Shown: positions 30,802-50,533, numbered from the stretch's first letter. The stretch is 64,000 bases of DNA from a virus (IMGVR_UViG_3300047372_000605:28959-92958), one strand, 5' to 3'. The notes: generated by a model from the sequence alone, not told the origin. Numbers and translations: made by a program.

Positions 30802-31425
30802 ATGAAAATAAGTTATGCAATTCCAGTTTGTAATGAATTTGTAGAAATTCAACGTTTATTAGGTTTTTTAATGCAAAATAAACGTAAACAAGATGAAATT
30901 ATAGTATTATATGATACTAATAATGGTACAATTGAAGTAGAAAAAATTTTAAATCATTACTTGCAATTAAACCAATATTCTTTATATAAATCACCTTTTA
31001 ATAAACATTTTGCAGAGTGGAAAAATCAATTATCTTCTTATTGTACTGGGGATTATATTTTTCAAATAGATGCAGATGAAATGATTACAGAAGTTTTAAT
31101 TGGTAATTTACCTACTATACTAGAAAATAATCCCAATAATGAAGTTTATTTAGTCCCCAGAGTAAATACAGTATCTGGTTTAACTCAAGAACATATTACA
31201 AAATGGGGATGGAATGTAGATAAAGAAGATAGGGTAAATTGGCCTGATTATCAATGGCGTATTTGGAAAAATAAACCTGAAATAAAATGGGTAAATAAGG
31301 TACATGAAAAATTAGAAGGATTTAACACTTATGCTCCACTTCCTCAAAATCCTGAATTAGCTCTACAGCATCACAAGACAATAGAAAGACAAGAAAAACA
31401 AAATAATTATTATGACACATTATGA
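30802..31425 (+). CDS. GT2 glycosyltransferase
   Basis: ISYAIPVCNE, QIDADE, KVHE. Confidence 0.85.
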   Translation: MKISYAIPVCNEFVEIQRLLGFLMQNKRKQDEIIVLYDTNNGTIEVEKILNHYLQLNQYSLYKSPFNKHFAEWKNQLSSYCTGDYIFQIDADEMITEVLIGNLPTILENNPNNEVYLVPRVNTVSGLTQEHITKWGWNVDKEDRVNWPDYQWRIWKNKPEIKWVNKVHEKLEGFNTYAPLPQNPELALQHHKTIERQEKQNNYYDTL

Positions 31426-31715
31426 AAATTTATGTAGATATTGATGAGACAATATGTTTTTATGATGGAGAACGTGAATACCCCAACGCTATACCTAGTA
31501 AAGAAAATATAGCTAAAATAAATAAGTTATATGATGAAGGTCATGAAATAACTTATTGGACAGCAAGAGGAACTGTTACGGGCATTAATTGGTTTAATTT
31601 AACAAAAGAACAACTTACAAAATGGGGATGTAAATGGCATAGTTTAGTTGTTGGTGTAAAACCTGCTTATGATTTACTGATATGTGATAAAACTAAAAGA
31701 ATAGAAGAAATATGA
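31422..31715 (+). CDS. Minimal HAD phosphatase
   Basis: DIDET, WTARG, KP.YD...CDK. Confidence 0.8.
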   Translation: MKIYVDIDETICFYDGEREYPNAIPSKENIAKINKLYDEGHEITYWTARGTVTGINWFNLTKEQLTKWGCKWHSLVVGVKPAYDLLICDKTKRIEEI

Positions 31716-32413
31716 AAAATGAAATATTAGATAATTTAAATAAAGTAGGAATATGTGTAATTGAAGATTATTTCAATTCGGATTGGTGTGATAAAGCAGT
31801 ATTAGACTTAGAGGATTCTTTAATAACTTATAAAGATAAGATACAATCTGAAGCTAAAGAGGAAACATCTGGGGATTTTAGAATATTTAAGATGGAAAAT
31901 CAATATGATACTGCTAAAACATTTGCTAATGATAATTTTTTATTAGATATTGGTAGTGAATATTTTGGTTATAAAATAGTTAGTCATTTTGTATTAGGAG
32001 GAAAAGTTCAATATAATCCAAATCAAATAACTAATAGTGGAGGAGGATGGCATAGAGATAATAGAGGTAAACAGATAAAAACAATTGTATATCTTACAGA
32101 TGTAGAAGAAACATCGGGTCCTTTTTCATTTTTACCTTTATCTAATCAGTTCGATCTACAAACTAGAGATGGTATTGGAAAAGCAACAAGATATGATGAT
32201 GATATAGTTAATGAATTTTGTAAAAAAAATAATATAGAACCTTTTAAGGTAATAGGAAAGAAAGGAACTATAATTTTTGTAGATACATCTTACATACACA
32301 GAGGTTTAAATATCCAATCAGGTTCTAGATATACTTACACTAATTATTATTTTGAGGATCATCCCCAACGATTCCAACTAACAGAAGATAAATGGGGTAA
32401 AATGTTCATATAA
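31712..32413 (+). CDS. PhyH-like 2OG-Fe(II) dioxygenase
   Basis: WHRD...YLTDV...GP...IHRG...R. Confidence 0.82.
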   Translation: MKNEILDNLNKVGICVIEDYFNSDWCDKAVLDLEDSLITYKDKIQSEAKEETSGDFRIFKMENQYDTAKTFANDNFLLDIGSEYFGYKIVSHFVLGGKVQYNPNQITNSGGGWHRDNRGKQIKTIVYLTDVEETSGPFSFLPLSNQFDLQTRDGIGKATRYDDDIVNEFCKKNNIEPFKVIGKKGTIIFVDTSYIHRGLNIQSGSRYTYTNYYFEDHPQRFQLTEDKWGKMFI

Positions 32414-33474
32414 TGGCTCATATTTTTAAATATCCTAAAGATAATAGTAAAGGTATTATAGTTTTTACTCATAAGGAATGGCCTTGGTTGCTACAAAATG
32501 CTTTATCAACCCTCCAGGATTTAAAACAAATGTTTTACTTAGGTTGGAACCAAGGAACATATTTTGGAGAAATTCAAATGCCTAATATTGTTGATTTTTC
32601 ATTCTCATCTCCTTCTACTCTTACTTATAAAGATAATGGAAATACTTTATATATTCCTTTATGTGGGAGAAATTTTTTAACTAGTGATTTTAAGAATTTA
32701 GATATTAAAGAAAAAAATTTTGATATAATATCAACTAGTAGAGCAGTTAAAATTAAACAACTCCCCCCATTATTACATTCTATTAAAAAGTTAAACAATA
32801 GAGGAATATATCCTAAAACTTTATTTATAATTCCCACAGCCGAAAATGAAACCCCAGAATATGCTGATATTAATATTGTAAAAACTTTTAATGAATTATT
32901 TACTGTTGAAGAGAAAAAACATATAACTATGATGAGGCTCTCTCCAGAATTAGGTTTTTTAGGAATTAATCAACAAACTTTAAATTGGTTTTATAATAAT
33001 AGTAAAATACTTTACATAGGATCTAAAAGTGAAGGAAATTGTAGAGTAGTTCATGAAGCTCTTATGGGTGGATGTAATATTGTTTATTATAAAAACCATA
33101 AGGGAGCTTTAGTGGATTATTTAGATAAAACTAATAGTACATCATATGATACCCATGAAAATATTGATATCGCATTAGAAAAGGCTTTAAAAAGTTATAC
33201 TTACTCAAAAATAAAAACAGATTCTTATGAAGACATTTTAAGTGAGAGAACTTCATTGAAAAAATTAATCCCCTATTTTGAAAAATTATATGAGTTAAAT
33301 AATTCAAAATTTGATGGAGAATTAATAAATTATGATAATTTATCCAATAGATTCCCAGCTCATTATTTAGATGTTCCTTGGAATAGCAAAGATCCTAAAG
33401 TCCCAACGGCTGATATTAAAACTCTAGATCAGTTAACTATTTTCATAAATTATATAAATGGAAATTGGAATTAG
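32413..33474 (+). CDS. GT-B (GT4-like) glycosyltransferase
   Basis: SRAVKIK, EGNCRVVHEA (E-x7-E). Confidence 0.6.
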   Translation: MAHIFKYPKDNSKGIIVFTHKEWPWLLQNALSTLQDLKQMFYLGWNQGTYFGEIQMPNIVDFSFSSPSTLTYKDNGNTLYIPLCGRNFLTSDFKNLDIKEKNFDIISTSRAVKIKQLPPLLHSIKKLNNRGIYPKTLFIIPTAENETPEYADINIVKTFNELFTVEEKKHITMMRLSPELGFLGINQQTLNWFYNNSKILYIGSKSEGNCRVVHEALMGGCNIVYYKNHKGALVDYLDKTNSTSYDTHENIDIALEKALKSYTYSKIKTDSYEDILSERTSLKKLIPYFEKLYELNNSKFDGELINYDNLSNRFPAHYLDVPWNSKDPKVPTADIKTLDQLTIFINYINGNWN

Positions 33475-33495
33475 TAAAAATTTATCGTATATTTG
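33464..33495 (+). promoter_or_regulatory. Promoter with full Bacteroidota -7 box upstream of neuB
   Basis: TTG-N20-TATATTTG (TAnnTTTG). Confidence 0.75.
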
Positions 33496-33535
33496 AAAAG
33501 CAATAGTTTAGTATAAACAAATAAAAAATAAAAAT

Positions 33536-34999
33536 ATGTTATATATATTTGAAATGGCAAATAATCATATGGGTAGTGTTTCCCATGCCAAAACTATCAT
33601 TGATGAATTTGCAAATTTATCAAAAAAATGGAAAATAACAGCAGGAATTAAATTACAATTTAGAAATCTAGATACTTTTATTCATCCTGATTTTCAACAG
33701 CGTAATGATTTAAAATATGTTAAAAGATTTAATGAAACTAGATTATCTAAATCAGAATTTAAAGAAATAGTTGATTATATTAAATCTACGGGATTATTAG
33801 CCATTACAACTCCTTTCGATAATGAATCAATCCCTATGACTTCAGAATTAAATATTGATGTATTAAAAGTAGCAAGTTGTTCTGTGGATGATTGGCCCTT
33901 ATTAGAAGAATTATCAAATATAAATAAAAAAATAATTATATCAACTGCAGGGGTTGAGTTAAATACTTTACGTAAGGTTTATAGAATATTTAAACAAAAA
34001 AGAAGAGATTTTGCATTTATGCATTGTGTTGGTGAATACCCAACAGCTAACGAAGTTGCAAATTTAAATAGAATTAAAGAATTAAAAAATGAATTTCCTG
34101 ATATAGAAATAGGATTTTCAACACATGAATCTCCTTTAGAAAAATCAATGACTCCTTATGCTGTAGCTATGGGATGTACAATAGTTGAAAAACATGTTGG
34201 GGTGCCTACAGATGAATGGTCTTTAAACGCTTATTCATTAACCAGTAATCAAATGGATAAGGTATTGTTTGAAATTGATGAATTATTAAGAGCATCAATA
34301 GGTAAATCTAATGAGCAAATTAAATCATTAAAATCTTTAAAACGTGGAGTTTATGTAAAAAATGATCTAAAAAAAGGCCATAAAATTAGTAAAAATGATA
34401 TATATTTTGCAATGCCAGTTCAAGATGGTATGCTAGATGCTTCTAACTATTATGATATTTTAAATTCTCATATTAAAACAGATAAAGTAAAAAATGAAGG
34501 GTTATATTTAAGTAATGTTGTAAATTTAGATCGAAAAGAAATAATAGAAAAAATAAAATCCCAAGTTAAAAAACAACTATCAGAAGCTAATGTTACAATT
34601 ACGGATAAGGATGATATAGAAATTTCATCTCATTATGGGTTAGAATCATTTTTTGAAACAGGTTGTGTTATTATTTCAAAAATCAACCGTAAATATTGTA
34701 AAAAAATATTAGTAGTTTTACCAAATCAATCTCATCCTACCCATAGACATATGATAAAAGAAGAATCATTTGAATTATTATCTGGAGATTGTAAATTAGT
34801 TTTAAATGGAAGGGATATAGATCTTAAATTAGGGGAACCAAAGCTTATTAATACAAAAGTTGATCATTCTTTTAGTAGTAAAAAAGGATGTGTAGTAGAA
34901 GAAGTGTCAACAACTCATATTCCTGGGGATTCTATATATCAAAATCCTGAGATAAATAAATTATCTTTAAGTGAACGTAAAATTAAAATATCTTTATAA
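33536..34999 (+). CDS. neuB: NeuB-family nonulosonate synthase with SAF and C-terminal cupin domains
   Basis: EMANNHMG, KLQ, TPFD, KVAS, HCVGEYP, GFSTHE, VEKH; C-terminal HPTHRH..KEE. Confidence 0.9.
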   Translation: MLYIFEMANNHMGSVSHAKTIIDEFANLSKKWKITAGIKLQFRNLDTFIHPDFQQRNDLKYVKRFNETRLSKSEFKEIVDYIKSTGLLAITTPFDNESIPMTSELNIDVLKVASCSVDDWPLLEELSNINKKIIISTAGVELNTLRKVYRIFKQKRRDFAFMHCVGEYPTANEVANLNRIKELKNEFPDIEIGFSTHESPLEKSMTPYAVAMGCTIVEKHVGVPTDEWSLNAYSLTSNQMDKVLFEIDELLRASIGKSNEQIKSLKSLKRGVYVKNDLKKGHKISKNDIYFAMPVQDGMLDASNYYDILNSHIKTDKVKNEGLYLSNVVNLDRKEIIEKIKSQVKKQLSEANVTITDKDDIEISSHYGLESFFETGCVIISKINRKYCKKILVVLPNQSHPTHRHMIKEESFELLSGDCKLVLNGRDIDLKLGEPKLINTKVDHSFSSKKGCVVEEVSTTHIPGDSIYQNPEINKLSLSERKIKISL

Positions 35000-35003
35000 A
35001 AAT

Positions 35004-35621
35004 ATGGGTACTCATTTCATAATACCTGCTCGAAAAAATTCAAAGGGATTTACTTATAAAAATAGATTTTTATTTGAAAATTTACCTTTAGAACTAAAAG
35101 ATAAAAATACTATAATTACTTCTGATGATGAAGTTATTAAAAAAATGAATCAACAACTATATAATTTTAATTTTTTAAAACGCCCTTCCCATTTATCAGA
35201 AGATACAACCAGCATAAAACCTGTATTAGAGCATGTAGTATCTGAATATAATCTTCCTCCAGAAGATGATTTAGTTGTATTATATTTAACTTACCCTGAA
35301 CGCACTTATGATGATATTGAAAGGATACTTACTTTTTACCATCATTGGAAAGGGGAGTCATTGTTATGTAAAGAACCTTTAAAACAACATCCTTATTTAT
35401 GTTTTTATGATAAAGGAATTTATGGTAAACGTATTGTTGATCATAATATGTACCGTCGTCAAGATTATCCAAAATGTTTTTTTGGATCCCATTATGTAGC
35501 AATTGTCAAAGTAAAATTTTTATCTTCAGTTGATTTAAATCTTTATAGTAAAAAAACTTTATTTTATGATTTGCAAGAGCATAAAATTGATGTTGATAAT
35601 AAAAGTGATTTACCCCTATAA
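35004..35621 (+). CDS. neuA: CMP-nonulosonate synthetase (NeuA-like)
   Basis: IIPARKNSKG..YKN, KRP..LSED, TYP.R, RRQD, IDVD. Confidence 0.85.
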   Translation: MGTHFIIPARKNSKGFTYKNRFLFENLPLELKDKNTIITSDDEVIKKMNQQLYNFNFLKRPSHLSEDTTSIKPVLEHVVSEYNLPPEDDLVVLYLTYPERTYDDIERILTFYHHWKGESLLCKEPLKQHPYLCFYDKGIYGKRIVDHNMYRRQDYPKCFFGSHYVAIVKVKFLSSVDLNLYSKKTLFYDLQEHKIDVDNKSDLPL

Positions 35622-35637
35622 AATCTAATTAAATGTA

Positions 35638-36288
35638 ATGATAGTAAATATAAACGATACTAATTTTAACTTATTTTTAAATTCCAATACATCTTTTTTT
35701 AATAATTTAAATGATAAATCAGTAGCGGTAGTTGGAAATAGTGGTATTTTATTAGATAATGAATATGGGTCTAAAATAGATAAACACGATATTACCATTA
35801 GGTTTAATGCTGCTCGAGTTAAAGGATATGAAAAAAATGTGGGTTCTAAAACTGACATAAGACTTATGAATGGTCATATATTTAATGGAAGTTCTAACCC
35901 TAAAAGATTTAAAAAAAATGATCCAAATTTTACTTCAAATTTAAATAATGAAACTTTAATAGTTAAATCATGGAATCAACAAGAATTTGTAGAAGGAATA
36001 CTAAAAACCACTCCCCAAAATAAAGTTTATTTTCTTAATCCTCCTTTTACTCAATATTGTAATTCTTTAACTGGTCAAGAAGCTACTTGTGGTGTGGTAG
36101 GGGTATTGTTTTTAAGTTTATTTACTTCTAAAATTTCTTGTTTTGGGTTTAATTTTTATAAAGATGGTTGGTCTAAAAATCATTATTGGGAAGAGATGGA
36201 AGAATATAAACAAGGACATTCATTTAATGTTGAGGAACAATTATTTGATCAATTAGAACAAGAAGGAAAAATAAAAATATTTAAATGA
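35638..36288 (+). CDS. GT29 sialyltransferase
   Basis: Sialylmotif L (AVVGNSGIL...GSKIDKHD..IRFN...GSKT), S (TCG...CFGF), III (HYWE), VS (HSFNVE). Confidence 0.88.
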   Translation: MIVNINDTNFNLFLNSNTSFFNNLNDKSVAVVGNSGILLDNEYGSKIDKHDITIRFNAARVKGYEKNVGSKTDIRLMNGHIFNGSSNPKRFKKNDPNFTSNLNNETLIVKSWNQQEFVEGILKTTPQNKVYFLNPPFTQYCNSLTGQEATCGVVGVLFLSLFTSKISCFGFNFYKDGWSKNHYWEEMEEYKQGHSFNVEEQLFDQLEQEGKIKIFK

Positions 36289-38309
36289 ATTATACGATTG
36301 AAAAGTTTGACTTAGAAAATTATAAATTTAATTTTGCTCAATGGTCTCATCCCTATTGTTCTCCTAAAAAATTTACCCAAGAACAAATAAATACTCAAAC
36401 TACATATTTAAATAAGGGAGATATTGTAATTGACATTGGAGCTTTTTCTGGAGATACTCCTGTCTTATATGCTAATGCTGTTGGAAAAAAAGGTAAAATT
36501 ATTTCATTTGAAGCTAATCCACATGCTTATGAGATTTTAGAAGTTAATTCAAAACTAAATAATCATTTAAATATAATCCCTATAAATAAAGCAATCACTG
36601 AAAAACCAGGAAAATATACATTTCATTACTCAGATAAAGGATTTTGTAATGGAGGTTTTGCTGAAGAAATTGATATGGGAGTTGGAGCTACAGGTCATGT
36701 GGTACCTTTAGAGGTAGAAGGGGTAAATCTAACAAATTGGTTAGAAAATAATTTAGATAAACAAGAATGGGATAAAATAAGCTTTATTAAAATTGATACT
36801 GAAGGCTATGATTATAAAATTTTAAGATCAAATAAAAAGCTATTTAAACAAATTAGACCCATTTTAGAAGTTGAATTATATCCTGCTTTATCATTAAGAG
36901 AAGTAAAAGAATTTTATAAAATATTAAAGGAAATAGGATATGAAGTATTTCAACAAAATAAAGGAAGAGATTGCTCTTTAAATTCTTTAACTACTAGTTT
37001 GGATGAACGAGGATTTATTCGTACATTTAAAAATATAAAAAGTGGGCAAGATATAGTAGCATATCCTAAAGAAAAAGTACCTAAAGAAAAATTAAAACAA
37101 CCTATGAAAATTAGTTTAATACAACCAAGTAGAAATAACTTAAAATACCTTAAATGGTCTTACAATTCAATTCGTAAAAATCAAGGTGATCATGAAGTAG
37201 AAATTTGTGTTGCTGATGATTTTAGTAATAAAGATAATACTTGGGAGTGGTGTCAAGAAATGATGGAAAAAGATCCATTATTCAAGGCAATTAGAAATGA
37301 AGGCCCAACACGTTTAGGCCATACTATATTATATGATACTCTGGTAAATGACGTGGCTACCAGCGATGTCTGTATGATTTACCATGCTGATATGTACTTA
37401 TGTCCTGGTGCTTTAGATGCGATTGAAAAACATTTAAAAGAAAAAACAATAGTATCACTTACTAGAATTGAACCACCATTACATCCAGATGGGCCAGAAA
37501 AAGTATTAAGAGATTATGGTATAGAACCTGAGGAGTTTAAGGAAGATTTGTTACTAAATAATTTAGGTAGTTCTGATTTTACAGGGCCTGGTCTTAATAC
37601 AACAACAGAAGGTATATTTGCACCTTGGGCATTCTGGAAGAAAGATTTTCAAGAGATAGGAGGACATGATCCTATATTTGCACCTCAATCAAAAGAAGAC
37701 ACAGATATATTTAATCGCTTTCATTTAAACGGAATTAAGTTTATCCAAACATGGGAAGGATTTGTTTATCATATGACTTGTAGAGGTAGTAGATTTGCAG
37801 ATGGAGCCCAAAGAAATCCAAATGGTGAAGTGTTCATGAAAAACCGAGAAACAGATGAATGGTTAAAACAAAATCAAAAATCCACTAGAGAATTTTTACG
37901 TAAATGGGGCCATTTTTGCAAACATGATGCTTTAATGAAACCAATTGTCCCTCCCAAATATGATATTGGTATAATATTAACAAATACAAAAATAGAACAA
38001 TTAGAATTACTAGAACCATGGTGTTCAAACATTTATACAGATGGAGATTATGTGGCTTACCAACAACAAGAATCTTTAAAAACCTCATTTGATTTAAATG
38101 ATAGAGTTAGAATTTTAGAATCTGGAAAAATTAATAATATACTAGTTAATATTGATGGAAATACTTTTACCCAATCTGATTTCCAAATATTACAACAACT
38201 TTCAGAAATAATTCAAGATAGTGGAGAAGTTGGAGAATTTGAATTAGGTAATTTAAAAATTAAAATTAATGATTTAAAAACTTATGAAAATACTTTAATT
38301 AAAGTATGA
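36285..38309 (+). CDS. FkbM-family methyltransferase fused to GT2 glycosyltransferase
   Basis: IDIGA, FEANP, IKIDTEGYD; from ATG 37104 MKISLIQPSRNN, ADD, HADM, IGGHD, EDTD. Confidence 0.85.
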   Translation: MNYTIEKFDLENYKFNFAQWSHPYCSPKKFTQEQINTQTTYLNKGDIVIDIGAFSGDTPVLYANAVGKKGKIISFEANPHAYEILEVNSKLNNHLNIIPINKAITEKPGKYTFHYSDKGFCNGGFAEEIDMGVGATGHVVPLEVEGVNLTNWLENNLDKQEWDKISFIKIDTEGYDYKILRSNKKLFKQIRPILEVELYPALSLREVKEFYKILKEIGYEVFQQNKGRDCSLNSLTTSLDERGFIRTFKNIKSGQDIVAYPKEKVPKEKLKQPMKISLIQPSRNNLKYLKWSYNSIRKNQGDHEVEICVADDFSNKDNTWEWCQEMMEKDPLFKAIRNEGPTRLGHTILYDTLVNDVATSDVCMIYHADMYLCPGALDAIEKHLKEKTIVSLTRIEPPLHPDGPEKVLRDYGIEPEEFKEDLLLNNLGSSDFTGPGLNTTTEGIFAPWAFWKKDFQEIGGHDPIFAPQSKEDTDIFNRFHLNGIKFIQTWEGFVYHMTCRGSRFADGAQRNPNGEVFMKNRETDEWLKQNQKSTREFLRKWGHFCKHDALMKPIVPPKYDIGIILTNTKIEQLELLEPWCSNIYTDGDYVAYQQQESLKTSFDLNDRVRILESGKINNILVNIDGNTFTQSDFQILQQLSEIIQDSGEVGEFELGNLKIKINDLKTYENTLIKV

Positions 38310-47572: not shown

Positions 47573-50533
47573 ATGAAAAAAATATTATTTAGTTTTATAA
47601 CAGTACTAAGTTTATTATCAACTGTTGTAAACGCTCAAAACACAATCTTCGGCTGTACAGATACAGCTGCAGCAAATTATGATTCAACTGCTACTCAAGC
47701 ATTAGCAGGCCCTGTTGAATTTCCAGTACAATGTAACCAAAACGGTTGGGGAGGTAATTATGTAGGTATAAACTTAGCTTTATATCAAGCACACCCATCT
47801 GAATTTGCAGTAGGTACTAAAGTAACAATAGCAGGACATGATTATTGGATTGATGCTATGAATATACCTGGAAATTGTAACCAAGGTGTAGCTTTAATTT
47901 ATATAGCATTAGCTCCTGGATTAGCAGATGGTAATCCATGGTCACCAGCAGGAAATGTAGTACAACCTGTAGTACCAGGTGATGAATGGAGCATAACAGA
48001 ATGCTTTTATAATCCTGGCTGTATGGATGATGATTATGTAGAATATGATCCAAATGCAGATTGGGATGATGGTAGTTGTCAAACATTAAAATTATATGGT
48101 TGTACTGATTCAACTTCATTAAACTATAATCCTTGGGCTAATACAGATGATGGTTCTTGTATAGCTGATTTAAATTGTGGTTTTAATCATGTTGAAATTA
48201 AGGTAACAATAAAAGTAGATAATTGGCCGGGTGAAACAAGTTGGTTATTATTACATTCAAACCCTAATTTAGGAACCACAGATACAACTTATTATGCGCC
48301 TAGAGGAACTTATGTTTGGGGACAACAAGGACAAACTATAGTAACTCGTTTTTGTGCACCTGCAGGTCCAAATCATTTATTACAATTTGTGTTGCAAGAT
48401 TCATATGGTGATGGTATAAGAGGTTCTTCACCACCAAATAATAGTGGGTTTTGTTTAGTTGAAAATATGTCTTGCCCAGATACTATTTTTTATATGTCTG
48501 AAGCAGATGCTGATTTTGGATATGTAATTACTAGTGATGGTACTTATTGGAGTCAAAGGGAACAATTTTGTGGTAGTACTTTAGTTTATCCTGGTTGTAC
48601 AGATCCAGCATATCAGGAATATGATTCACTAGCTACTAATGATGATGGTAGTTGTCAAAATCTTCATGTTTATGGTTGTATGGATTCTACTTCATATAAT
48701 TATGATCCTAATGCTACAGCTTGGGATAATATAGACCAGTGTGAATATAGAGTTATACTTGAAGATGATGGTGGAGATGGTTGGGGAGAAAGCTTTATAG
48801 GTATTAAACAAGGAAATCAATTATGGGATTTTCGTTTGGATCCAGGAGTATATGTTGATACTGCTATAGTATATTTTGATGTAACTGATAATCCAGGTTT
48901 ACAAGAACCTGTTGAATTATACTATTTTGAAATAGGAGATGGGCAACAATCGGCTCAACAAATAGATATTCAAACAATACAAAACTCAGTTAAAATAGAA
49001 AATGATTATGGAATTTTATTCCATGAAGGTAATTTCCCATGGGCAAATGGAAATAAGTTAAAAAATTATCAAACAACAGCAGATATATATTTTGCAACAC
49101 CATTTTGTGGGTATGAATGTATTCCTGCAGTTTATGGTTGTATGGATCCAACTTCATTAAACTATAACCCAGATGCAAATGTAGATGATGGTAGTTGTAT
49201 TCCTATAATTTATGGTTGTACTAATCCTTTAGCATTTAATTATGATTCAACTGCTACTGTTGATGACAATTCCTGTATAGCAACAGTTTATGGTTGTACA
49301 GATCCTACTTCATTTAACTATGACCCAAATGCTAATGTTGATAATGGAACTTGTATTTACCTAGGTTGTACAGATATTACAGCTTGTAATTATGATTCAA
49401 CCGCAAATGTTGATAATGGAGGTTGTATGTATCCTCCTCAATATTATGATTGTAATTATGTTTGTTTAGAAGATACAGATGGAGATGGTATTTGTGATTC
49501 ATTAGAAATACCGGGCTGTACAAATCCACTTTCATTAAACTATAATCCTAATGCTACTGATGATGATGGTAGTTGTATACCTTATGTTTATGGTTGTACT
49601 GATTCTACAGCTTATAATTATAATCCTTTAGCAAATACTGATGATGGTTCTTGTGTTCCTGTAATTTTAGGTTGTACAGATCCCACTATGTTTAATTTTA
49701 ATCCTAATGCAAATGTAGATGATGGTAGTTGCATTCCTATAGTTTATGGTTGTATGGATAATACAATGTTTAACTATAATCCAAATGCAAATGTAGATAA
49801 TGGAAGTTGTATACCATTTATTTATGGTTGTACTGATTCAACAGCATTTAACTATGATCCTCTAGCTAATACTGATAATGGAACTTGTATTCCTGTAATA
49901 TATGGTTGTACAGATCCAAGTGCATTTAATTATAATCCTTTAGCTAATACAGAAGATTTTAGTTGTATACCTGTAGTTTATGGTTGTACAGATTCATTAG
50001 CAGTAAATTATGACCCTGCAGCAAATGTAGATAACGGTTCTTGTATAACAGCAGTTCCTGGTTGTACAGATCCAAATGCTTATAATTTTGATCCAAATGC
50101 AAATGTTCCAGATTCGGCAACTTGTTTATATGATGCAGGTTGTATTACAGGACCTGGTAACCCATATTGGTTAAATGATGATTGTTATGCTTGGGTAATT
50201 AGTGTAGATCCTTATTGTTGTAATGTAGCTTGGGATGCTAATTGTCAAAGTACTTATGATTACTGTGCTTCAAATAGTGGTTGGGTTGGAGTTGAAGATT
50301 TAATCTACGATGGAGGAATAGCCATTTATCCAAATCCTACTACAGGAGAATTAAATATAGTAAGTTCAAGAATTAAAAATGTACTTGTAACTATATATTC
50401 AGTTTCAGGTCAAGTAGTTGTTAATGAAACTAGTGAAAACGTTATTGATATAAGCCATTTAGAAGATGGTGTTTATTTCATGAATGTGAAAGTAGGAGAA
50501 TTAACATATATAAGAAAAGTGATTAAACAATGA
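47573..50533 (+). CDS. Secreted Cys-repeat protein with T9SS type-A sorting domain
   Basis: Signal peptide ...VNA-Q; ~17 GCTD...NY..A..DDGSC repeats; C-terminal IYPNPT...IYS..GQ...DISHL..GVYF...KVIKQ. Confidence 0.88.
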   Translation: MKKILFSFITVLSLLSTVVNAQNTIFGCTDTAAANYDSTATQALAGPVEFPVQCNQNGWGGNYVGINLALYQAHPSEFAVGTKVTIAGHDYWIDAMNIPGNCNQGVALIYIALAPGLADGNPWSPAGNVVQPVVPGDEWSITECFYNPGCMDDDYVEYDPNADWDDGSCQTLKLYGCTDSTSLNYNPWANTDDGSCIADLNCGFNHVEIKVTIKVDNWPGETSWLLLHSNPNLGTTDTTYYAPRGTYVWGQQGQTIVTRFCAPAGPNHLLQFVLQDSYGDGIRGSSPPNNSGFCLVENMSCPDTIFYMSEADADFGYVITSDGTYWSQREQFCGSTLVYPGCTDPAYQEYDSLATNDDGSCQNLHVYGCMDSTSYNYDPNATAWDNIDQCEYRVILEDDGGDGWGESFIGIKQGNQLWDFRLDPGVYVDTAIVYFDVTDNPGLQEPVELYYFEIGDGQQSAQQIDIQTIQNSVKIENDYGILFHEGNFPWANGNKLKNYQTTADIYFATPFCGYECIPAVYGCMDPTSLNYNPDANVDDGSCIPIIYGCTNPLAFNYDSTATVDDNSCIATVYGCTDPTSFNYDPNANVDNGTCIYLGCTDITACNYDSTANVDNGGCMYPPQYYDCNYVCLEDTDGDGICDSLEIPGCTNPLSLNYNPNATDDDGSCIPYVYGCTDSTAYNYNPLANTDDGSCVPVILGCTDPTMFNFNPNANVDDGSCIPIVYGCMDNTMFNYNPNANVDNGSCIPFIYGCTDSTAFNYDPLANTDNGTCIPVIYGCTDPSAFNYNPLANTEDFSCIPVVYGCTDSLAVNYDPAANVDNGSCITAVPGCTDPNAYNFDPNANVPDSATCLYDAGCITGPGNPYWLNDDCYAWVISVDPYCCNVAWDANCQSTYDYCASNSGWVGVEDLIYDGGIAIYPNPTTGELNIVSSRIKNVLVTIYSVSGQVVVNETSENVIDISHLEDGVYFMNVKVGELTYIRKVIKQ
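49133..50125 (+). repeat. Tandem ~78-nt (26-aa) coding repeats
   Basis: About 12 near-consecutive YGCTD...DDGSC units. Confidence 0.85.

What the first reader, a model, noticed from the sequence alone, without database searches (positions are those of the whole stretch)
33464..36288. Self-contained phage sialylation module: NeuB + NeuA + GT29 sialyltransferase
Seen: three adjacent genes behind their own promoter encode synthesis (NeuB), CMP activation (NeuA) and transfer. The transferase has all four sialylmotifs (L, S, III HYWE, VS HxxxxE) and no TM anchor. Known: GT29 is the eukaryote-type sialyltransferase family; most characterised bacterial sialyltransferases are GT38/42/52/80. Inference: the phage makes and attaches a nonulosonic acid (Neu5Ac, KDN or related) to virion glycans or host surface glycans. 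The nearby HAD phosphatase (31422) could supply a 9-phosphate-removal step, and the cupin fused to NeuB could supply or isomerise the hexose substrate.
Basis: partly seen in the sequence, partly recalled or inferred. Interest (0 to 1): 0.85.

Follow-up and report, generated by a model that had tools for sequence, protein, structure and literature searches.

The report
Phage acidic-sugar pathway with soluble GT29
An uncultured marine tailed phage carries genes that should build a sialic-acid-like sugar (probably the deaminated form, Kdn), activate it with CMP and attach it with a small soluble relative of animal sialyltransferases; related phages keep the transferase but swap the sugar-making genes, and what gets decorated is still unknown.

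Summary
At 33536-36288 lie a NeuB-family synthase fused to SAF and cupin domains, a divergent CMP-sugar synthetase, and a 216-aa GT29 with all four sialylmotifs, no membrane anchor and no L/S disulfide cysteines. The cupin is a D-lyxose/D-mannose isomerase by profile and fold. The 97-aa gene at 31422 is a minimal HAD phosphatase. In about 32 of 79 bacterial loci its homologue is fused to a cytidylyltransferase directly upstream of the same synthase-isomerase fusion. The four activities parallel the Kdo and Kdn pathways, and no NeuC is present. I therefore favour a 5-hydroxy sugar such as Kdn over Neu5Ac, but this is inferred. GT29 travels with a cytidylyltransferase in 15 of 18 viral loci, and natural cytidylyltransferase-GT29 fusions exist. 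Related phages keep the island backbone and GT29 but exchange the synthase cassette (NeuC-type, short NeuB, KdsA-type). The "own promoter" claim is not supported: promoter-like sites occur at chance level. The acceptor is unknown. All island proteins are soluble, and the host is probably Bacteroidota. This scan has noted similar phage GT29 modules in at least 58 other genomes. I found no paper describing them in phages. Bacterial GT29 homologues were described in 2018.

The parts
31422..31715 (+). Minimal (capless, 97 aa) HAD-superfamily sugar-phosphate phosphatase; proposed ulosonate-phosphate (e.g. Kdn-9-P) phosphatase
   Evidence: HAD motifs I-IV (D6, D8, T47, K80, D84, D89) invariant in 28 homologues. 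AlphaFold model pLDDT 93.6. Best PDB folds: phage HY126 AfhF sugar-bisphosphate phosphatase 9iqw (35% id, E 1e-7), 1xpj, HisB-N, T4 Pnkp, Kdn-9-P and Kdo-8-P phosphatases. The homologue is the C-terminal domain of a CTP_transf_3-HAD fusion directly upstream of NeuB-LI in bacteria.
33475..33535 (.). 61-nt AT-rich intergenic gap, the only sizeable gap inside the island; promoter not demonstrable
   Evidence: sigma-70-like matches at chance level; one TAnnTTTG box at 33488, but that motif is not enriched in intergenic DNA.
33536..34522 (+). NeuB-family PEP-dependent ulosonic acid synthase domain plus SAF (antifreeze-like) domain, residues 1-329 of the 487-aa fusion
   Evidence: Pfam NeuB 4.2e-39, SAF 1.1e-4. 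PDB 3g8r (uncharacterised SpsE-like, Chromobacterium) 2.4e-74, against NmNeuB 4.5e-20 and PseI 1.4e-17. NCBIfam NeuB 133 bits against cut-off 400, PseI 128 against 340.
34523..34999 (+). C-terminal cupin domain of the same protein: D-lyxose/D-mannose isomerase family (aldose-ketose isomerase)
   Evidence: Profile against PDB: B. subtilis D-lyxose isomerase 2y0o 1.7e-17, Thermofilum 7nzo 3.6e-15, over the whole domain. Model pLDDT 94.9. Foldseek 2y0o TM 0.77, rmsd 1.8 A; 7nzp/7nzq fructose and mannose complexes. H405, K408, E410 and H444 are invariant and align with the Mn ligands and lysine of lyxose isomerases.
34971..35621 (+). Divergent CMP-ulosonic acid synthetase (CTP_transf_3 superfamily); likely true start ATG at 35004
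   Evidence: weak direct matches. Motifs IIPARKNSKG, LTYPERT, RRQDYP and DVDNKSDL are read directly. 929 representatives at E<=1e-3, and relatives at 40-48% identity pass the Pfam cut-off. Natural fusions of this subfamily with GT29 domains: P0190, P0195, P0222, P0225, P0229.
35638..36288 (+). Minimal soluble GT29 (sialyltransferase-family) glycosyltransferase, 216 aa
27553..31425 (+). Upstream part of the glycan island: two GT-B (GT4-like) transferases, a 153-aa unknown, a GT2 transferase
   Evidence: Conserved at 50-67% identity in related phage loci L002-L009 and L011.
31712..33474 (+). PhyH-family Fe/2OG dioxygenase (233 aa) and a GT-B transferase (353 aa), the backbone genes just upstream of the variable cassette
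36285..38309 (+). FkbM-type methyltransferase fused to a GT2 transferase (674 aa), overlapping the GT29 stop by 4 nt
   Evidence: The GT2 half is 63-64% identical in related phages, where it lacks the FkbM domain.

Best explanation
A phage-encoded pathway makes, activates and transfers a 3-deoxy-2-ulosonic (sialic-acid-like) sugar, most probably the deaminated nonulosonic acid Kdn. The proposed steps are as follows. (1) The lyxose/mannose-isomerase cupin domain converts a ketose, or ketose phosphate (fructose-6-P or fructose), into the manno-configured aldose. (2) The fused NeuB-SAF domain condenses it with PEP. (3) The 97-aa HAD enzyme removes the phosphate. (4) The NeuA-like enzyme makes the CMP-sugar. 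(5) The soluble GT29 transfers it, with inversion, onto a glycan assembled in the cytoplasm by the six other transferase domains of the island and tailored by a methyltransferase and a dioxygenase. Shown here by computation: domain identities, catalytic motifs, folds of the HAD and cupin domains, linkage of the four activities in bacteria and phages, and linkage of GT29 to CMP-sugar synthetases. Inferred: the order of steps 1-3, the identity of the sugar, the donor specificity of the GT29, and the acceptor. Related phages keep GT29 and the island backbone but carry other synthase cassettes, so the module appears to be a swappable 'terminal acidic sugar' unit.
For: Domain calls. Bacterial linkage: the gene directly upstream of the NeuB-SAF-isomerase fusion is a CTP_transf_3-HAD fusion in about 32 of 79 loci across many phyla. 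A tree splits the fusion family by context, and the window's protein falls on the CTP-HAD side (SH-aLRT 100). Fusing phosphatase to cytidylyltransferase and isomerase to synthase fits the order isomerase, synthase, phosphatase, activation, the same logic as KdsD/A/C/B and the animal/Bacteroides Kdn route (established knowledge). Viral linkage: 15 of 18 viral GT29 loci have CTP_transf_3, in 10 of them abutting GT29, and 14 have a NeuB or KdsA synthase. Of 33 viral NeuB-isomerase loci, 24 have CTP_transf_3, 14 have the HAD and 5 have GT29, including L121 with GT29-CTP-NeuB-LI-HAD packed in that order with gaps of 8 nt at most. Natural CTP_transf_3-GT29 fusion proteins exist. The HAD homologue accompanies the short-NeuB and KdsA cassettes but not the NeuC cassettes, as expected for phospho-sugar routes. 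No NeuC in the 93 kb held. All island proteins lack TM segments.
Against: No enzyme of this NeuB subfamily (3g8r-like), of this cytidylyltransferase subfamily or of any prokaryotic or phage GT29 has, to my knowledge, been assayed, so everything rests on homology and context. Characterised lyxose isomerases act on unphosphorylated sugars, which fits a fructose to mannose to Kdn route in which the HAD would act first, or a C5 substrate giving an 8-carbon acid. A second bacterial clade of the same fusion sits in quite different clusters (NDP-sugar dehydratase, aminotransferase, TPP enzyme, C-methyltransferase, radical SAM), so the family is not restricted to simple hexoses. The contig is only about 59% complete, so missing genes such as NeuC cannot be excluded. 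The NeuA-like protein itself is below Pfam's cut-off.
Confidence: 0.68

Rival explanations
1. True sialylation: the module makes CMP-Neu5Ac and the GT29 adds N-acetylneuraminic acid, with ManNAc or ManNAc-6-P supplied by the host or by a gene on the missing 40% of the genome.
For: GT29 enzymes characterised so far use CMP-Neu5Ac (established knowledge). The best solved match of the NeuA-like protein is a CMP-Neu5Ac synthetase. Relatives L006-L009 do carry NeuC next to a canonical NeuB.
Against: No NeuC in the contig. The synthase reaches 133 bits against the 400-bit cut-off of the NeuB equivalog. It is fused to an aldose-ketose isomerase that cannot make an N-acetylated sugar. The NeuC-type cassette of relatives is a different, non-homologous cassette with a different NeuB (24% identity).
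Confidence: 0.07
2. A different ulosonic acid. This could be an 8-carbon 3-deoxy-octulosonic acid made from D-lyxose (xylulose to lyxose), or a further tailored (methylated or hydroxylated) nonulosonic acid that is not Kdn itself.
For: The closest solved relatives of the cupin are D-lyxose isomerases. Relatives pair GT29 with KdsA-type (Kdo-like) cassettes (L011, L014). A FkbM methyltransferase and a PhyH dioxygenase flank the module. The class II bacterial clade of the fusion sits in clusters for complex sugars.
Against: Lyxose isomerases also interconvert fructose and mannose (7nzp/7nzq complexes), and hexose phosphates are far more abundant precursors. The window's enzyme groups with the simple CTP-HAD clade, not the complex one.
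Confidence: 0.2
3. The GT29 is not functionally tied to the NeuB/NeuA genes. It uses another donor, as claimed for plant GALT29A, a galactosyltransferase, and the adjacency is only island packing.
For: Plant GT29 members are annotated as beta-1,6-galactosyltransferases (names). No assay exists for any prokaryotic GT29.
Against: CTP_transf_3 accompanies GT29 in 15 of 18 independent viral loci despite changing synthase types. Natural CTP_transf_3-GT29 fusions exist. The CMP-binding and catalytic motif residues are invariant.
Confidence: 0.05

Closest known systems
Bacterial GT29 sialyltransferase-like proteins (Petit et al. 2018, Sci Rep 8:2946, PMC5811610)
   Same: Same Pfam/CAZy family. All four sialylmotifs, no transmembrane anchor, and no L/S disulfide cysteines, exactly as that paper reports for bacterial sequences.
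   Different: Those are cellular (mostly alphaproteobacterial) sequences described bioinformatically, and the paper does not mention phages. Here the gene is phage-borne, only 216 aa long, and embedded in a swappable CMP-ulosonate cassette.
Animal Golgi sialyltransferases, e.g. pig ST3Gal-I (PDB 2wnb)
   Same: The catalytic domain aligns over about 195 residues (profile E 2e-43). Motif III HYWE and the VS-motif His/Glu are conserved.
   Different: No N-terminal anchor or stem, no disulfides, about 80 residues shorter, cytoplasmic. The donor is probably not Neu5Ac.
Kdn pathway of vertebrates and Bacteroides thetaiotaomicron (Man-6-P + PEP to Kdn-9-P by a NeuB-family synthase, then a HAD Kdn-9-P phosphatase, then CMP-Kdn synthetase); the Kdo pathway KdsD/A/C/B is its 8-carbon parallel
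   Same: Same four chemical steps and three of the same protein superfamilies (NeuB family, HAD, CTP_transf_3). Kdn-9-P phosphatase structures appear among the fold matches of the 97-aa protein.
   Different: The isomerase is a lyxose-isomerase-type cupin fused to the synthase. The HAD is a 97-aa capless form closer to phage AfhF (9iqw) than to the KdsC/Kdn9P-phosphatase family. The synthase belongs to the uncharacterised 3g8r-like branch. None has been assayed.
Bacterial two-gene module [CTP_transf_3-HAD] + [NeuB-SAF-lyxose-isomerase cupin], found here in about 32 of 79 loci from many phyla
   Same: The same four domains. The window's synthase groups with this clade, and its HAD is 38-48% identical to the fused HAD domains.
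   Different: In the phage the HAD and the cytidylyltransferase are separate genes, the cytidylyltransferase is from another subfamily (26-27% identity), and a GT29 is attached. No GT29 was detected by tblastn in the 80 bacterial loci. I found no publication on this module.

Membership tests
CAZy GT29 / Pfam PF00777 | Match to the family model above the curated cut-off | tested here: met
   104.1 bits against cut-off 23, E 1.1e-29; also 102 bits in the genome search.
CAZy GT29 / Pfam PF00777 | Sialylmotifs L, S, III and VS, with the motif III His-Tyr and the VS His...Glu | tested here: met
   H182, Y183, H194 and E199 are invariant in 15 sequences including fish ST3Gal-I-like and plant GALT29A-like. 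They align with the corresponding residues of 2wnb.
CAZy GT29 / Pfam PF00777 | Type II membrane anchor and the conserved L-S disulfide (features of the eukaryotic Golgi enzymes, not of the bacterial branch) | tested here: not met
   No N-terminal hydrophobic segment. Ser replaces the L-motif Cys, and the S-motif Cys position is not conserved. Petit 2018 reports the same for bacterial GT29.
CAZy GT29 / Pfam PF00777 | Transfer from a CMP-activated sialic/ulosonic acid | not testable with these tools
   Only context: CTP_transf_3 in 15 of 18 viral GT29 loci and CTP_transf_3-GT29 fusions.
NeuB family nonulosonic acid synthases (PF03102 + SAF) | NeuB TIM-barrel domain followed by SAF/antifreeze-like domain | tested here: met
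   NeuB 134.9 bits, SAF 23.1 bits, both above cut-off.
N-acetylneuraminate synthase (TIGR03569) or pseudaminic acid synthase (TIGR03586) equivalogs | Score above the equivalog cut-off | tested here: not met
   133.3 against 399.65 and 128.5 against 340.25. The closest solved protein is the uncharacterised 3g8r.
D-lyxose/D-mannose isomerase (PF07385, YdaE type) | Cupin fold with N-terminal helix and the His-His-Glu-His metal site plus conserved Lys | tested here: met
   Pfam 23.5 against 20.8, on a short stretch. Profile against 2y0o 1.7e-17 over the whole domain. Fold TM 0.77, rmsd 1.8 A. H405, K408, E410 and H444 are invariant, and H403 is conserved in most sequences.
CMP-nonulosonate/Kdo synthetases (PF02348 CTP_transf_3) | Match above the curated cut-off | tested here: not met
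   17.6 against 22.6 bits; 15.7 bits. PseF model E 2e-6, full length but far below cut-off. Relatives at 40-48% identity do pass, so superfamily membership is by transitive homology.
CMP-nonulosonate/Kdo synthetases (PF02348 CTP_transf_3) | N-terminal P-loop-like PARxxSKG, the QPTSPxR-like loop, the RRQD sugar-binding motif and C-terminal acidic D-x-D | tested here: met
   IIPARKNSKG, LTYPERT, YRRQDYP and IDVDNKSD are read and aligned to 6ifd. The comparison of motifs with the literature is from my own knowledge.
HAD-superfamily phosphatases | Motifs I (DxD), II (T/S), III (K) and IV (acidic pair) on a Rossmannoid fold | tested here: met
   D6, D8, T47, K80, D84 and D89 are invariant. Model pLDDT 93.6, and the top PDB folds are all HAD phosphatases. 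Direct HMM matches are only weak (TIGR01689, E 0.007).

The most novel reading that the evidence does not exclude
Phage and prokaryotic GT29 enzymes are general CMP-ulosonate transferases (Kdn, Kdo-like, Leg/Neu-like). A lineage of marine Bacteroidota myoviruses keeps one GT29 in a fixed glycan island while exchanging the upstream sugar-synthesis cassette. That would re-code the terminal acidic sugar on a host envelope glycan or on the virion as an arms-race device. If so, these 200-220-aa, disulfide-free, anchor-free GT29s would be the first soluble minimal members of the animal sialyltransferase family with natural donor diversity.
Probability: 0.35. Interest if true: 0.75.

Novelty: new variant of a known kind. 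Interest (0 to 1): 0.6.

Why it matters
GT29 is the family that sialylates animal cell surfaces. Its prokaryotic branch has been described only bioinformatically (2018), and I found no assay of it and no paper on phage copies. A phage that carries a whole donor pathway plus a minimal cytoplasmic GT29 offers an enzyme set that may express easily in bacteria, since it has no disulfides and no membrane anchor. That set could test what the ancestral branch of the family transfers. The cassette swapping suggests that terminal acidic sugars are a contested trait in phage-host interactions in the sea. The work also exposes a widespread bacterial four-domain module (cytidylyltransferase-phosphatase plus synthase-isomerase) on which I found no published work. 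It probably makes a CMP-activated deaminated sialic acid.

Tried and rejected
1. DNA similarity to GenBank phages: none. tblastn of the GT29 gave a single 30% hit, in a 484-kb uncultured phage.

The single scan then went to the synthase fusion, so bacterial GT29 neighbourhoods were not examined. Three bacterial genomes holding the synthase fusion have no GT29.

4. Promoter claim: chance-level matches.

5. DNA-glycosylation reading. It was prompted by the island's place among replication genes and by the HAD's best fold match to a phage arabinose-bisphosphate phosphatase. No thymidylate-synthase-like hydroxymethylase was found in the 93 kb. I kept this reading only as a remote possibility.

6. 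Literature: searches combining GT29, phage, sialyltransferase, nonulosonic, Kdn, cupin, 3G8R and AfhF found nothing on phage GT29 or on the synthase-isomerase fusion.

7. The profile search with A1 was dominated by eukaryotic hits, because two eukaryotic rows were in the profile, and added little.

Their assignments rest on sequence profiles and motifs.


Full report
WHAT THE DNA IS. The window is bases 28959-92958 of a 92,958-bp IMG/VR viral contig that CheckV estimates to be about 59% complete. G+C is 26-33%, and almost all genes lie on the + strand. The contig encodes a tail sheath, a baseplate-wedge protein and tail-fibre-like proteins. It also has a T4-like replication set: family B polymerase, clamp loader, UvsX-like recombinase, DnaB-like helicase and an exonuclease. 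Ribonucleotide reductase, GroEL and three tRNAs are present too. It is therefore a large myovirus. One 986-aa protein ends in a type IX secretion sorting domain (Por_Secre_tail, 52 bits, cut-off 27). Close protein relatives come from Tara and other marine assemblies. A marine Bacteroidota host is likely but not shown.

THE OBSERVATION. Three adjacent ORFs are present as described.

- The first (33536-34999, 487 aa) has a NeuB domain (E 4e-39), a SAF domain and a C-terminal cupin with a short Lyx_isomer match.
- The second (34971-35621) is only weakly similar to CTP_transf_3: 17.6 bits against a cut-off of 22.6, PseF E 2e-6 over its full length, and CMP-Neu5Ac synthetase 6ifd at 1.5e-3. It does carry the family's sequence motifs. 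A full HMMER search found 929 representative relatives. The 40-48% identical ones pass Pfam's cut-off. Its real start is probably the ATG at 35004.
- The third (35638-36288, 216 aa) is a clear GT29 (104 bits against 23). A profile of it and its relatives hits pig ST3Gal-I at 2e-43 and also ST6Gal-I, ST8Sia-III and ST6GalNAc-II. Motifs L, S, III (HYWE) and VS are present. H182, Y183, H194 and E199 are invariant from phage to fish and plant sequences.

There is no membrane anchor, and the two cysteines that form the L-S disulfide in animal enzymes are absent. Petit et al. 2018 reported the same two features for bacterial GT29 homologues (PMC5811610).

The claimed private promoter is not supported. 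A 61-nt gap precedes the synthase, but promoter-like sites occur at the chance rate (90 found, 89.1 expected). A Bacteroidota-type -7 box in the gap belongs to a motif that is no commoner between genes than within them.

THE CUPIN AND THE HAD GENE. A 46-sequence profile of the C-terminal 158 residues matches the D-lyxose isomerases 2y0o (1.7e-17) and 7nzo (3.6e-15) end to end. An AlphaFold model (pLDDT 94.9) superposes best on the same enzymes (TM 0.77, rmsd 1.8 A), including the fructose and mannose complexes 7nzp and 7nzq. The residues aligned with their metal ligands and active-site lysine are invariant.

The 97-aa gene at 31422 has all four HAD motifs, invariant across 28 homologues. Its confident model (pLDDT 93.6) has nearest solved folds that are all HAD phosphatases. 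The first is the phage HY126 sugar-bisphosphate phosphatase AfhF (35% identity). Kdn-9-P and Kdo-8-P phosphatases lie further down the list.

WHY THESE GENES BELONG TOGETHER. The synthase-isomerase fusion is widespread, with more than 4000 related proteins in the metagenome collection. It turned up in at least 461 species genomes.

In about 32 of the 79 bacterial loci analysed, the gene immediately upstream is a fusion of a CTP_transf_3 cytidylyltransferase with a C-terminal HAD domain. That HAD domain is 38-48% identical to the phage's 97-aa protein. A second group of about 35 loci, including Mycobacterium szulgai and M. angelicum, places the fusion in a quite different cluster. That cluster has a nucleotidyltransferase, an SDR dehydratase, a DegT aminotransferase, another HAD-like protein, a TPP enzyme, a C-methyltransferase, a NUDIX hydrolase and radical SAM enzymes.

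A maximum-likelihood tree separates the two context groups, and the window's protein falls on the side of the simple CTP-HAD group (SH-aLRT 100). This was the quick IQ-TREE search, not the finished careful one.

Bacteria therefore encode the same four activities as two fusion proteins: isomerase with synthase, and phosphatase with cytidylyltransferase. Fusions tend to join consecutive steps. The most economical order is ketose phosphate to aldose phosphate, to ulosonate phosphate, to ulosonate, to CMP-ulosonate. This is the logic of the Kdo pathway and of the animal and Bacteroides Kdn pathway (established knowledge). An aldose-ketose isomerase yields a 2-hydroxy aldose, not an N-acetylated one. 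The contig has no NeuC, and the synthase scores far below the NeuB and PseI equivalog cut-offs. I therefore favour Kdn made from fructose-6-P via mannose-6-P. A route through free fructose and mannose, or an 8-carbon product from lyxose, cannot be excluded.

WHY GT29 BELONGS TO THE PATHWAY. In IMG/VR, 18 loci encode a GT29 relative. Fifteen of them hold a CTP_transf_3 gene, in ten cases abutting the GT29. Fourteen hold a NeuB- or KdsA-type synthase. At least two of the exceptions are cut by contig ends.

Among 33 viral loci with the synthase-isomerase fusion, 24 have the cytidylyltransferase, 14 have the HAD and 5 have a GT29. One of them (L121) has GT29, cytidylyltransferase, synthase-isomerase and HAD packed in that order with gaps of 8 nt at most. 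Natural proteins also exist in which a close relative of the window's cytidylyltransferase is fused to a GT29 domain, in some cases with further transferase domains.

CASSETTE SWAPPING. Loci L002-L009 and L011 are relatives of this phage. They share the island backbone at 50-77% identity: two GT-B transferases, a 153-aa protein and a GT2, plus in most of them the HAD, the PhyH dioxygenase, a third GT-B, the downstream GT2, a TraR-like protein and an HNH-like protein. What differs is the stretch between the third GT-B and GT29:

- This phage: synthase-isomerase plus NeuA-like.
- L002-L004: methyltransferase, short NeuB and cytidylyltransferase.
- L006-L009: canonical NeuB-SAF, NeuC, a PseB/LegB-like dehydratase and cytidylyltransferase, with no HAD.
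- L011: DHDPS-like aldolase, KdsA-like synthase, dioxygenase, methyltransferase and cytidylyltransferase.

L017 is more distant. It has GT29, a cytidylyltransferase 40% identical to the window's, and a NeuB-SAF fused to a xylose-isomerase-like TIM barrel. That is a second, independent synthase-isomerase fusion. GT29 identity falls to 39-47% where the cassette type differs, and in L006-L009 the flanking backbone genes stay at 59-63%. This fits adaptation to the donor or co-replacement with the cassette.

WHAT IS DECORATED. This is unknown. No island protein has a transmembrane segment, and there is no flippase, polymerase or initiating phosphotransferase. Assembly is therefore cytoplasmic. The acceptor could be a host lipid-linked precursor (LPS, capsule or the Bacteroidota O-glycan). 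It could also be phage proteins directly. The island lies among replication genes, not next to structural genes, which mildly favours host remodelling. A DNA target is remote, since no hydroxymethylase was found.

NOVELTY. Bacterial GT29 homologues are published. I found no paper on phage GT29, on phage Kdn-type pathways or on the synthase-isomerase fusion. The library searched is limited to open-access papers and preprints. Earlier notes of this scan describe similar phage GT29 modules in at least 58 other genomes, so this is a recurrent, not a unique, feature of uncultured phages. This window adds four things:

- the identification of the isomerase and phosphatase steps;
- the matching bacterial two-gene module;
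- the natural cytidylyltransferase-GT29 fusions;
- the cassette exchange around a constant GT29.

LIMITS. The GT29 alignment could not be used on genome contigs. The GT29 and NeuA-like proteins were not folded because the two structure jobs went to the HAD and the cupin.

Noticed in passing
L021-L099 (bacterial loci), e.g. L028:8000-16000 (Mycobacterium szulgai), L066, L059: A second clade of the NeuB-SAF-lyxose-isomerase fusion sits in a conserved cluster: nucleotidyltransferase, SDR, DegT, fusion, NT5C/HAD-like, TPP enzyme, C-methyltransferase, NUDIX and radical SAM enzymes. It looks like a pathway for a complex higher-carbon or branched sugar and appears uncharacterised.
   Followed up: partly
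L017:9653-11542: A 629-aa NeuB-SAF protein fused to a xylose-isomerase-like TIM barrel (AP_endonuc_2), next to a cytidylyltransferase and a GT29. It is an independent second kind of synthase-isomerase fusion in a phage.
   Followed up: partly
L011:6239-10579: A related phage replaces the NeuB cassette by a DHDPS-like aldolase, a KdsA-like synthase, a PhyH dioxygenase and a methyltransferase in front of the cytidylyltransferase and GT29. This suggests a tailored Kdo-like donor for a GT29.
   Followed up: partly
window 31422-31715: The closest solved structure to the 97-aa HAD protein is phage HY126 AfhF, a D-arabinose-1,5-diphosphate phosphatase (9iqw, 35% identity). This minimal capless HAD type therefore seems to be a recurrent phage sugar-phosphate phosphatase.
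   Followed up: partly
window 47573-50533: A 986-aa phage protein ends in a type IX secretion C-terminal sorting domain (Por_Secre_tail, E 8.8e-14). This points to a Bacteroidota host and to phage use of the host's secretion system.
   Followed up: partly
window 34971-35010: The ORF finder starts the NeuA-like gene at GTG 34971, overlapping the synthase. The ATG at 35004, 5 nt after the synthase stop, fits the family's N-terminus better.
   Followed up: no
L020 (2.7-kb contig binned in a Flavobacteriales MAG): It carries the synthase-isomerase (76% identity), the HAD (79%) and the NeuA-like gene (72%) in that order. It is probably a fragment of a related phage, and is weak support for a Flavobacteriales host.
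   Followed up: no
window 36285-38309 against L002:12224-13405: The window's GT2 downstream of GT29 carries an N-terminal FkbM methyltransferase domain that relatives lack. Those relatives instead have separate DUF2334-like and other genes there, a second variable spot in the island.
   Followed up: no
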